IMG/VR virus record: IMGVR_UViG_2703718811_000010
Strand: one strand, 5' to 3'
Length of the DNA: 5,046 nucleotides
From: a virus
Taxonomy: Duplodnaviria > Heunggongvirae > Uroviricota > Caudoviricetes
This document shows positions 364 to 1,331 of the stretch, in pieces. The notes beneath the pieces were generated by a model. It did not search any database. It was not told where the DNA came from and was given only the letters and a program-made list of their open reading frames with translations. Numbering within the stretch: the first letter of the stretch is position 1; each line of letters starts with the position of its first letter. A program made the position numbers and the translations under genes.

Positions 364-912
364 TTACCCCTGCCGCCCGATAACCACCACCTTCCCGCCA
401 CCACCTTCATCACGGGTGCTGATGTCCTGGGAGATTCGCCGGGAGCCAACCAGCATTTCACCGTAAGGCACCGGCATCGGGTTCCCCTGGGCAATCATGT
501 TATCCAGTGAGGAAAAGTACGTGTTCTGTTTGCCGTTATCCGTCGCCCTGTACTCCGGTGTTTTTGCCTTCGGGGCCAGCATCTGGGCCACACCACCCAG
601 CGACATGGCAGCCCCCATGGAAAACATAATATTGCTGGCTGCAATACCGATACCCGGCATCCAGATAGCAGCTGCAACCAGCGCAACGCCAAGAACCGCC
701 TGAAACACACCGCCACTTTTGGCTCCTTCAGTCCGGGGTACCAGATGAATGACATCCCCCGGGCTCAGTGGCTCATGCAGTCGGGTCGATATCTGGTCCG
801 GCGCAGTATCCTCACCGGCAATACGTACCCGGTACCAGCCTTCGTTCATCTGACGGCGGAATCCCGGCAGCTGCAGCGACAGCGCCCGGATGGCTTCCGC
901 TGCTGTGTTCAC
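364..912 (-). CDS. I: Tail assembly protein I homolog (lambda gpI family), N-terminally truncated; annotated from the in-frame GTG at 910-912, may be a pseudogene
   Basis: The ORF product contains AEAIRAL, GAKSGGVFQ, a hydrophobic Gly/Ala-rich segment, MLAPKAKTPEYRATDNGKQNTYFSSLDNMIAQGN, YGEM.VGSR and a C-terminal VVVIGR, matching lambda gpI as I recall it. In-frame homology (GDLQRFGRRLSLY) continues upstream of the GTG to about 951 with no ATG, and about 20 N-terminal codons are missing. Stop TAA at 364-366. Confidence 0.85.
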   Translation of the reverse strand: MNTAAEAIRALSLQLPGFRRQMNEGWYRVRIAGEDTAPDQISTRLHEPLSPGDVIHLVPRTEGAKSGGVFQAVLGVALVAAAIWMPGIGIAASNIMFSMGAAMSLGGVAQMLAPKAKTPEYRATDNGKQNTYFSSLDNMIAQGNPMPVPYGEMLVGSRRISQDISTRDEGGGGKVVVIGRQG

Positions 913-1331
913 ATACAGGCTGAGGCGGCGACCAAATCGTTGTAAATCCCCGTGAACTGTCGCTGCATGGATAACGGAATAGAATCAAGCGTACTGGACA
1001 ATGCCATCGCCAGCTTGCTGAGGGCGAAAACGCAGAAGTCTGAATCGATGAGCTTACCTTCGGTTACCTGATTTTTAAGTTTTTGAGCTACGACCTGTTC
1101 TTCTGTCAGTTCAGCTCTGGCCCGAAGCAGCCTTTCCTCCAGATCGCCCCCGTCATCAGGTGTTCTCTGATTGTGTTGTCGCCGCTCGCGATCTATCTCC
1201 AGTACAGTTTTAACGTCATAAAAAACTTCCCTCCCCCGACGCTCAACAGGAGGAACGCCCCATTTATCAAATGCCTGAACAGAGATACCGATGGAGGAGG
1301 CCATATCACTTTTATTCAATAAAAAGGCCAT
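909..1331 (-). CDS. nu1: Terminase small subunit, Nu1-like, C-terminally truncated (about 140 aa versus about 181 aa in lambda)
   Basis: Product ...SSIGISVQAFDKWGVPPVERRGREVFYD...DSDFCVFALSKLAMALSSTLDSIPLSMQRQF matches lambda Nu1 (...FGASIRTIQNWQEQGMPV...ETAFCTFVLSRIAGEIASILDGLPLSVQRRF). Start chosen at ATG 1329-1331 (MAFLLNKSD, aligning with lambda MEVNKKQ) with GGAGAGGAG just upstream; ATG at 1347-1349 is an alternative. The track ORF extends to 1436 but that stretch overlaps a cosB-like repeat. Similarity ends after QRQF and the frame stops at 909-911. Confidence 0.85.
   Translation of the reverse strand: MAFLLNKSDMASSIGISVQAFDKWGVPPVERRGREVFYDVKTVLEIDRERRQHNQRTPDDGGDLEERLLRARAELTEEQVVAQKLKNQVTEGKLIDSDFCVFALSKLAMALSSTLDSIPLSMQRQFTGIYNDLVAASACM

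What the first reader, a model, noticed from the sequence alone, without database searches (positions are those of the whole stretch)
909..960. Deletion junction fusing small terminase (Nu1) to tail assembly gene I: a packaging-defective prophage
On the minus strand Nu1 similarity runs through ...LPLSMQRQF (codons CAG CGA CAG TTC) and, two nucleotides later in another frame, gpI similarity begins at GDLQRFGRR (GGG GAT TTA CAA CGA TTT), placing the breakpoint at about 952/953. Nu1 lacks roughly its last 45 residues and I lacks its first 20 or so and its start codon. In a lambda-like layout everything between them (large terminase A, portal, protease/scaffold, capsid, head-tail joining and tail genes through K, about 17 kb in lambda) is absent. 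Both flanks encode Q-R-(Q/R)-F in similar nucleotides (CAGCGACAGTT versus CAACGATTTGG), so a short-homology deletion is conceivable but speculative. The Nu1 stop and a GTG in the I frame overlap as GTGA, so the I remnant could still be translated by coupling.
Basis: partly seen in the sequence, partly recalled or inferred. Interest (0 to 1): 0.6.

Follow-up and report, generated by a model that had tools for sequence, protein, structure and literature searches.

The report
Prophage deletion joining terminase and tail genes
This is a real scar in a decaying lambda-like prophage of E. coli, where about 14.4 kb of head and tail genes were lost; such decay is ordinary, but other independent deletions start at the same nucleotide of the small-terminase gene, and that is unexplained.

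Summary
On the minus strand the window reads lysozyme, antirepressor, Rz/Rz1, an intact cos site, a small-terminase (Nu1) gene cut after codon 126, then tail-assembly gene I from codon 20.

Nu1-side identity to intact relatives ends at window 954 and I-side identity ends at 956. In E. coli ST866 both flanks lie in one collinear prophage, 14,367 bp apart, with 17 head and tail genes between them.

The identical junction occurs in two other E. coli draft assemblies that differ from the window by SNPs and repeat copy number, so it is heritable and not an assembly artefact.

Corrections:
- Nu1 lacks 42 residues and I lacks 19 codons.
- The lambda equivalent is 14.2 kb, not 17 kb.
- The proposed Q-R-(Q/R)-F homology was not used.

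Unexpected: 18 of 23 distinct truncations of this Nu1 family stop at three codon boundaries, each joined to many different downstream partners through 1-4 nt microhomology. A fixed end with variable partners resembles scars of IS excision, but I found no IS at these sites. The finding itself is ordinary prophage decay. The hot spot is the only point of interest.

The parts
4490..5023 (-). Endolysin (R-type lysozyme), 177 aa
   Evidence: ORF. PF00959 on the identical gene call in L003. Annotated as lysozyme in L001.
3647..4216 (-). Antirepressor-like gene inserted between R and Rz
   Evidence: PF10547 P22_AR_N E=5.9e-46 plus PF10549. The same arrangement is seen in phage BP-4795 and in Stx phages.
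3023..3490 (-). Rz spanin, with the embedded Rz1 ORF at 3085-3270
   Evidence: ORFs. PF03245 Phage_lysis on the L003 gene call.
1756..1917 (+). YlcI/YnfO-family small gene (DUF3950), which runs into a TGACAAC heptamer array at 1899-1941
   Evidence: PF13132 E=4.5e-19. Tandem array found.
1545..1556 (-). cosN cohesive-end sequence GGGCGGCGACCT, identical to lambda's, with flanking cos sequence conserved
   Evidence: Alignment with the lambda left end.
954..1331 (-). Native part of the small terminase gene (Nu1), codons 1-126
   Evidence: PF07471. 99.6% identical to the intact gene of OkiPb01678.
909..953 (-). Fourteen foreign codons plus the stop that end the truncated Nu1 ORF. This is gene I read out of frame.
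   Evidence: Translations. All homologues cover only about 90% of the 140-aa query.
954..956 (.). Deletion junction: the 3-nt microhomology GAA (+ strand) / TTC (coding strand) shared by both parental sequences
   Evidence: Three-way alignment of the window, the I parent and the Nu1 parent. Null P(>=3 nt) = 0.058.
364..953 (-). Tail assembly gene I remnant, from codon 20 to the stop, with no start codon of its own
   Evidence: PF06805. 62% identity to lambda gpI. 99.2% DNA identity to intact I of ST866 and ES5.
1..127 (-). Duplicated 5' fragment of tail-tip gene J, which ends after about 45 codons. In relatives it precedes a moron ORF and then the real J.
   Evidence: Window 14-127 matches two places in ST866. 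ORFs of L003.

Best explanation
The window is the late region of a lambda-like prophage of E. coli that has lost about 14.4 kb in one internal deletion. The lost DNA is the 3' end of Nu1, then the terminase large subunit, portal, protease/scaffold, decoration and capsid genes, the head-completion genes and all tail genes through K, and finally the first 19 codons of I.

The two ends were joined by illegitimate, not homologous, recombination at a 3-nt TTC. The result is a 140-aa Nu1 stump of 126 native residues plus 14 out-of-frame residues. It keeps the DNA-binding and central parts of the protein but lacks the C-terminal region that recruits the large terminase subunit. A promoterless, start-less I fragment follows it. 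The cos site is intact, so the element can make neither terminase nor particles. It could be packaged only by a co-resident helper with the same cos specificity.

These steps are shown: the junction, the parental arrangement, the heritability and the loss of domains. This step is inferred. The Nu1 end of the deletion is not random, because at least three other independent deletions start at the same nucleotide. The pattern is a fixed end, 1-4 nt of terminal microhomology, variable downstream partners and no IS left behind. It is what IEE-dependent excision of an insertion sequence leaves, so a former IS at this site is my favoured but unproven mechanism.

Confidence by part: deletion about 0.9, loss of packaging function about 0.9, IS-anchored origin about 0.3.
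For: Junction and parents:
- Nu1-side identity (99.6% to L001) ends at window 954 and I-side identity (99.2% to L002) ends at 956.
- In ST866 the two breakpoints are 14,367 bp apart in one collinear prophage, with 17 annotated head and tail genes between them.

The junction is real:
- The exact 140-aa product is encoded on contigs of two NCBI E. coli assemblies, GCA_025824165.1 and GCA_020319715.1.
- These differ from the window only by one or two extra heptamer copies and 1-2 SNPs.
- A 3-nt overlap cannot be produced by a k-mer assembler.

The stump is truncated:
- The Pfam profile is cut at position 146 of 164.
- Family members are typically 166-169 aa.
- The lambda TerS C-terminal portion binds TerL (PMC6739421).

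Further decay: L003 carries a second deletion of about 4.2 kb that fuses J to the tail-fibre gene.

Recurrent breakpoint at ...CAGTTC|:
- Joined to I in the window.
- Joined to a site 24 nt upstream of stf in L006.
- Joined to the 3' part of J in L013.
- Joined to gene C in P0125.
- Overall, 18 of 23 distinct truncations fall at three codons, P<5e-6 by simulation.
- Terminal microhomology is 1-4 nt.

Literature: IEE-dependent IS excision gives IS-adjacent deletions from a few nt to more than 40 kb by microhomology-mediated end joining, and IEE is present in over 30% of E. coli assemblies (PMC9943667; bioRxiv 10.1101/2023.06.07.543989).
Against: - No complete genome among 5,426 carries this junction. 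The evidence for it rests on short-read drafts.
- The parents used (ST866, OkiPb01678) are relatives, not the true ancestor.
- The 3-nt microhomology alone is only marginally above chance (P about 0.06), and the flanking imperfect homology is not significant.
- For the IS idea, I found no IS at any of the three sites. The only IS-bearing hit has IS1 upstream of Nu1.
- All 90, 95 and 6 Nu1 copies recovered from IMG/VR and JGI metagenomes are native at the three sites.
- Draft contigs that stop exactly at the V89 site could reflect forks between co-resident prophages rather than an IS.
- Two Nu1 alleles that differ by 6% share the F126 site. Under the IS model this needs two insertions at one site, or target specificity.
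Confidence: 0.85

Rival explanations
1. The junction is an assembly or sequencing artefact, a chimeric contig that joins two different prophages in a draft genome.
For: E. coli genomes carry several near-identical lambdoid prophages, with a median of 3 and up to 26 matching places per genome. Every sequence with the junction comes from a draft assembly, and no complete genome has it.
Against: - The parental sequences share only 3 nt at the join, so a k-mer graph cannot create it.
- Three separate sequences carry the identical junction yet differ in heptamer copy number and SNPs.
- An analogous junction, P0043, is reproduced by two assemblers on L009 and L010.
Confidence: 0.02
2. The arrangement is native and functional: a helper-dependent, satellite-like element that keeps cos, lysis genes and a short TerS-like protein next to tail genes. 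The stump would act as a dominant-negative or packaging-redirecting TerS.
For: - cos is intact.
- The stump keeps the N-terminal and central parts of Nu1.
- E. coli PICI satellites do exploit TerS-like DNA-binding proteins (Rpp) and cos sites (PMC6739421).
- Truncations at defined positions recur.
Against: - The stump ends in 14 out-of-frame codons of gene I, and I lacks its start.
- Both flanks are 98-99% identical to an ordinary full-length prophage.
- A second deletion has destroyed J in L003.
- Only two contigs in the large collection encode the exact protein, and the three copies show no variation from which selection could be judged.
- The tails differ completely among hot-spot variants.
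Confidence: 0.03
3. The junction arose by illegitimate recombination between two different prophages at separate chromosomal sites, with loss or inversion of the intervening chromosome, and not by a deletion inside one prophage.
For: In OkiPb01678 the best Nu1 match (99.6%) lies at 4.71 Mb and the best I match (95%) at 2.84 Mb, in different prophages. Lambdoid prophages are mosaics.
Against: In ST866 both flanks lie in one prophage, collinear and in the same orientation. The downstream flank of L003 (J fragment, moron, tail fibre, YkgJ-family gene) follows the ST866 prophage order out to the same chromosomal neighbour.
Confidence: 0.07
4. The shared Nu1 breakpoint reflects a sequence-specific nick, break or replication pause at the site, for example by a nuclease or a mis-acting terminase, followed by end joining. 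No IS is involved.
For: - The three hot sites have similar local sequence: CAGGTA|ACCGAA, CAGTTC|CCGGAT and CGGTTA|TCCGGA. The equivalent positions in the other allele lack this sequence and are not hot.
- All deletions seen extend in the direction of packaging and late transcription.
- No IS was found at the sites.
Against: - The motif rests on only three sites.
- The directionality is an ascertainment effect, because I searched with the Nu1 N-terminus.
- No known E. coli enzyme was matched to the motif.
- One V89 deletion extends past the prophage end into the chromosome, which argues against a packaging-coupled process.
Confidence: 0.15

Closest known systems
Cryptic lambdoid prophages of E. 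coli that retain Nu1-homologue remnants (DLP12 nohD, Qin nohQ/nohA in K-12). Cited from my own knowledge, not tested here.
   Same: Lambda-like late region (lysis genes, cos, Nu1 homologue) left behind after loss of the morphogenetic genes. The element is defective for particle formation.
   Different: A different Nu1 allele, only 32% identical to lambda Nu1. A different junction, Nu1 codon 126 to I codon 20. It is rare and apparently recent, with flanks 98-99.6% identical to intact relatives, and is found on only two other contigs.
Intact relative prophages in E. coli ST866 (next to potB and a YkgJ-family gene) and OkiPb01678
   Same: 98-99.6% DNA identity on both sides of the junction, and the same gene order R, Rz, ylcI, cos, Nu1 ... 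I, J fragment, moron, J.
   Different: They carry the 14.4-kb A-to-K block. ST866 lacks the antirepressor insert and has its own frameshift in Nu1.
IS-adjacent deletions made during IEE-dependent excision of IS629 and other IS3, IS1 and IS30-family elements (Kusumoto et al. 2011, as described in PMC9943667 and bioRxiv 10.1101/2023.06.07.543989)
   Same: One deletion end is fixed and the other variable. Sizes range from a few nt to tens of kb. Joins use short microhomology. No IS is left behind.
   Different: No IS has been seen at the Nu1 sites. The presence of IEE in the source genome is unknown. The same site is used in two alleles that differ by 6%.
cos-type phage satellites (E. coli PICIs with Rpp; PMC6739421)
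   Same: A cos site and a protein with a TerS-like N-terminal DNA-binding region, in an element that cannot build its own particles.
   Different: This stump is plainly a broken phage gene with an out-of-frame tail. No satellite hallmark genes lie within reach, and the surrounding DNA is an ordinary prophage late region.

Membership tests
Phage small terminase Nu1 (Pfam PF07471) | Significant match to the family profile | tested here: met
   50.3 bits against a cut-off of 30, E=2.7e-13. 32% identity to lambda Nu1, E=2e-19.
Phage small terminase Nu1 (Pfam PF07471) | Full-length protein, including the C-terminal part that binds the large subunit | tested here: not met
   The profile is covered only to position 146 of 164, whereas the intact relative reaches 163. 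Forty-two native residues are replaced by 14 foreign ones. The role of the C-terminus is taken from PMC6739421.
Phage small terminase Nu1 (Pfam PF07471) | Gene lies just downstream of cos and just upstream of the large terminase gene | tested here: not met
   cos is present about 210 nt upstream, but the large-subunit gene is absent and gene I follows instead.
Lambda tail assembly protein I (Pfam PF06805) | Significant match to the family profile | tested here: met
   44.1 bits against a cut-off of 23.8. 62% identity to lambda gpI.
Lambda tail assembly protein I (Pfam PF06805) | Complete reading frame with its own start, preceded by K | tested here: not met
   The first 19 codons and the ATG are missing. 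There is no canonical start between the in-frame stop at 987-985 and GTG 912-910. K is absent.
Scar of IS excision with adjacent deletion (IEE-type) | Independent deletions share one exact end and have different other ends | tested here: met
   The end ...CAGTTC| is joined to I, to the region upstream of stf, and to the 3' part of J at DNA level. The same pattern holds at two further Nu1 sites.
Scar of IS excision with adjacent deletion (IEE-type) | Short microhomology at the join | tested here: met
   1-4 nt at eight junctions, using proxy parents.
Scar of IS excision with adjacent deletion (IEE-type) | An IS occupies that exact site in related genomes | tested here: inconclusive
   None was seen among the top 60 complete genomes with this allele. 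The one IS1 found lies upstream of Nu1. The tools cannot list all partial matches, so absence is not established.
Scar of IS excision with adjacent deletion (IEE-type) | The IEE gene and a copy-out-paste-in IS are present in the host genome | not testable with these tools
   Only contigs of 5-11 kb are available for the strains that carry the junction.
Helper-dependent cos satellite (PICI-like) | Own integrase, regulation and replication module, plus a packaging-redirection gene | not tested
   Nothing of this kind lies in the window or in the 11-kb contig L003. The rest of the element is not available.

The most novel reading that the evidence does not exclude
The Nu1 end of this deletion is one of three precise, sequence-defined hot spots in the small-terminase gene of lambdoid prophages. 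At these sites a site-specific process repeatedly removes the morphogenetic operon. That process could be an undescribed nuclease or nick, or a target-specific mobile element that later leaves without trace. Either way it would be a recurrent, directed route to prophage disarmament rather than random decay.
Probability: 0.2. Interest if true: 0.6.

Novelty: new member of a known kind. Interest (0 to 1): 0.25.

Why it matters
The junction itself is one more example of how lambdoid prophages decay, and it changes nothing. It is useful mainly as a strain marker and as a warning that annotation pipelines label this stump 'terminase small subunit'. The recurrent breakpoint is more interesting. Suppose deletions that remove the whole head and tail operon really start again and again at three exact positions in the small-terminase gene. 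Prophage domestication in E. coli would then be partly driven by a specific mechanism, most plausibly IS insertion followed by IEE-type excision. That mechanism could be tested directly in strains with and without IEE.

Tried and rejected
Both copies remain in the window, and the crossover maps 13 nt away.
- Longer imperfect homology patch around the junction (TAAATCC...G.GAA): not significant. 40% of random site pairs score as well.
- Junction search in GTDB species representatives: no match.
- Rfam scan of the window: only sub-threshold chance hits.
- Known prophage anti-sRNAs (AgvB/AsxR) in the Rz-cos spacer: rejected. Those lie downstream of PR' at the moron site, not here.
- IS at the hot spots:
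  - The single two-piece hit in complete genomes is an IS1 upstream of Nu1.
  - The phage collection has no phage with this Nu1 5' allele.
  - Complete genomes with the second allele appear intact: 22 full-length matches, and no high-identity truncated copy among the rows sampled.
- Metagenome hits with non-native sequence after the 18-mer: unrelated chance matches, with about 30% upstream identity.
- L006 and L009 junctions in complete genomes: absent.
- I considered, by eye only, a resemblance of the hot-spot sequences to the left half of cosN, to restriction sites (GGTNACC, CCGG, TCCGGA) and to IS91 or IS1 targets. None fitted all three sites at the observed cut position, so I claim none of them.
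- Two proteins from the cluster list (P0125, P0123) could not be looked up for DNA.
- The Ooka et al. 2009 paper is not held in the library.

Full report
**What is in the window.** All the phage genes but one small gene lie on the minus strand, in lambda late-region order.
- An R-type lysozyme lies at 5023-4490.
- An antirepressor-like gene with a P22_AR_N domain lies at 4216-3647.
- A 50-aa ORF follows.
- Rz lies at 3490-3023, with Rz1 embedded at 3270-3085.
- An AT-rich spacer of about 1.5 kb holds a plus-strand YlcI/YnfO (DUF3950) gene at 1756-1917.
- A cos site carries the cohesive-end sequence GGGCGGCGACCT at 1556-1545, identical to lambda's.
- A Nu1-type small terminase gene starts at 1331.
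- The body of tail assembly gene I runs down to 364.
- A short 5' fragment of J lies at 127-1.

These assignments rest.

**Checking the observation.** The Nu1 ORF reads ...LDSIPLSMQRQF and then TGIYNDLVAASACM-stop. In another frame the sequence reads HGDLQRFGRRLSLYVNTAAEAIRAL... to the end of I.

Pfam confirms both families and shows the truncations:
- Phage_Nu1 covers profile positions 4-146 of 164. An intact relative covers 4-163.
- Lambda_tail_I covers profile positions 7-83 of 83.

Direct comparison with lambda gives these figures:
- Nu1 is 32% identical, E=2e-19, and true similarity ends at lambda QRRF, residues 137-140.
- gpI is 62% identical, E=6e-91, starting at lambda residue 18.

**Mapping the breakpoint with intact relatives.**
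- Window 943-5046 is 99.6% identical to a prophage of E. coli OkiPb01678 in which Nu1 is full length (168 aa) and is followed by the terminase large subunit, W and portal genes.
- Window 1-956 is 99.2% identical to prophages in which I is full length (215 aa) and is preceded by K.
- In strain ST866 both pieces lie in a single prophage, in the same order and orientation.

An ungapped three-way alignment gives these coding-strand sequences:
- Nu1 parent: ...CAGCGACAGTTC CCGGATTTAACG...
- I parent: ...CATCTGCCTTC ACGGGGATTTACAACG...
- Window: ...CAGCGACAGTTC ACGGGGATTTACAACG...

The crossover lies in the shared TTC at window 956-954. In ST866 coordinates the two TTC copies are 14,367 bp apart. 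The interval holds 17 annotated genes: the terminase large subunit, W, portal, S49 protease, decoration, major capsid, FI, FII, Z, U, V, G, T, tape measure, M, L and K.

Nu1 has lost its last 42 residues (PDLTPRHIDH...IRATTE) and gained 14 out-of-frame residues. I has lost codons 1-19.

**Is the junction real?**
- The exact 140-aa product is encoded on contigs of two NCBI E. coli assemblies and has RefSeq and GenBank protein accessions.
- Those contigs match the window at 99.7-99.8%. They differ only by one or two extra copies of a TGACAAC heptamer and by one or two SNPs.
- At least three independently sequenced isolates therefore inherited the same junction.
- The parents share only three bases at the join, so a k-mer assembler could not have invented it.
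- Family members from E. coli, Salmonella, Klebsiella, Hafnia and others are typically 166-169 aa. All of them align only to the first roughly 126 residues of the query. The 140-aa form is thus an outlier and not a natural short variant.
- The 11-kb contig L003 shows further decay. A second deletion of about 4.2 kb joins J, after about 120 codons, to the collagen-like part of the tail-fibre gene. The same YkgJ-family chromosomal neighbour as in ST866 follows.
- None of 5,426 complete E. coli genomes has the junction, so it is rare.

**Consequences.** The element keeps cos and a Nu1 stump with the N-terminal DNA-binding and central regions. It lacks the C-terminal portion through which lambda TerS binds TerL (PMC6739421). 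It also lacks every head and tail gene up to I. It can neither cut nor package its own DNA, nor build particles. Packaging would need a helper with matching cos specificity. That last point is inference.

The GTGA overlap of the Nu1-stump stop with a GTG in the I frame exists. That GTG is only Val34 of I. Any product would lack 33 N-terminal residues and would have no partners. NCBI's gene call on L003 instead starts the I remnant at an ATC 60 nt upstream. Neither start is evidence of translation.

**How it formed.** The 3-nt TTC occurs by chance in about 6% of random site pairs. The patchy similarity around it is not significant. On its own this looks like ordinary illegitimate recombination.

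**An unexpected pattern.** The protein search and cluster listing turned up many other truncated versions of this Nu1 family. Their native sequence stops at very few positions.

After F126, which is the window's own site:
- the window, joined to I
- P0001/L006, joined 24 nt upstream of the side-tail-fibre gene, in the loop of the lom terminator
- P0002/L013, joined to the 3' part of J
- P0125, joined inside gene C, possibly 1 nt earlier

The first three are confirmed at DNA level to end at the same ...CAGTTC. The L006 allele differs from the window's by 6%.

After V89 (...CAGGTA):
- joins to H, C and E at DNA level
- joins to A and to chromosomal DNA beyond the prophage end at protein level

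After L107 of a second allele (...CGGTTA):
- joins to D, to L and to a tail-fibre gene at DNA level, the last reproduced by two assemblers
- six more joins at protein level

In total, 18 of 23 distinct truncations fall at three codon boundaries. In 200,000 simulations with uniform breakpoints this never happened. Terminal microhomology at eight junctions is 1-4 nt, using proxy parents.

The native continuations at the three sites are ACCGAAGG, CCGGATTT and TCCGGAGA. The equivalent positions in the other allele lack this sequence and are not hot.

All 90, 95 and 6 Nu1 copies recovered from IMG/VR and JGI metagenomes were native at these sites. The deletions are individually rare.

**Interpreting the hot spot.** A fixed end with many partners, short microhomology and no element left behind is the signature reported for IEE-dependent excision of IS629 and other IS3, IS1 and IS30-family elements. 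[quoted passage not shown]

This is my favoured mechanism, but it is inference only:
- I found no IS at any of the three sites.
- The search tools could not list all partial matches.
- Contigs that stop exactly at V89 are as well explained by forks between co-resident prophages.
- A sequence-specific nick or replication pause remains a live alternative.

**Verdict.** It is an ordinary case of prophage decay, with a precisely mapped 14.4-kb deletion. The one thing worth following up is that its Nu1 breakpoint is shared by other independent deletions.

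Noticed in passing
window 954-956. Also L006 6378, L013 602, L071 1119, L072 1381, L073 490, and 8321 in each of L007, L008 and L009.: Independent deletions in this Nu1 family share three exact left ends (after codons 89, 107 and 126) but have many different right-hand partners. 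18 of 23 distinct truncations fall at these three codons. All three ends sit at codon boundaries, and each is followed in the native gene by (N)CCGRA.
   Followed up: partly
window 1899-1941: A perfect TGACAAC/ACTGACA heptamer array of 6.1 copies terminates the YlcI/YnfO ORF. Its copy number differs among the three otherwise near-identical sequences: the window, +1 copy in L004 and +2 in L003.
   Followed up: partly
window 1-127; L003 5281-6310; L002 10004-11034: The first 114 nt or so of gene J are present twice as a direct repeat. The repeats flank an inserted 168-aa ORF with no Pfam match (L003 5531-6037). This arrangement also occurs in the intact relative ST866, so it predates the deletion.
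   Followed up: partly
window 2091-2185 and 2719-2826, + strand: Two small units lie antisense to the late operon in the Rz-cos spacer. Each has a promoter-like site, an A-rich stretch (the first has (AAT)6 at 2113-2130) and a hairpin followed by a run of 8 T. The first hairpin folds with z = -5.4. They could be short sRNA genes. Rfam has no match, and they are not at the position of the known prophage anti-sRNAs.
   Followed up: partly
L003 6198-7233: A second deletion of about 4.2 kb, relative to ST866, fuses J after about 120 codons to the collagen-like repeat region of the tail-fibre gene. It removes most of J, lom and the fibre N-terminus.
   Followed up: partly
window 3647-4216: An antirepressor-like gene (P22_AR_N plus ORF11CD3 domains) and a 50-aa ORF sit between the lysozyme and Rz, as in BP-4795 and Stx1a phages. 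ST866 lacks this insert.
   Followed up: no
L002 26099-26689: The otherwise complete ST866 relative has its own frameshift in Nu1, which is annotated as a pseudogene plus a 76-aa ORF. That prophage may also be defective for packaging.
   Followed up: no
cluster of P0121: The 90%-identity protein cluster that holds the Nu1 stump also contains fragments annotated as portal protein with no similarity to Nu1. This suggests that a Nu1-portal fusion from yet another deletion bridges them.
   Followed up: no
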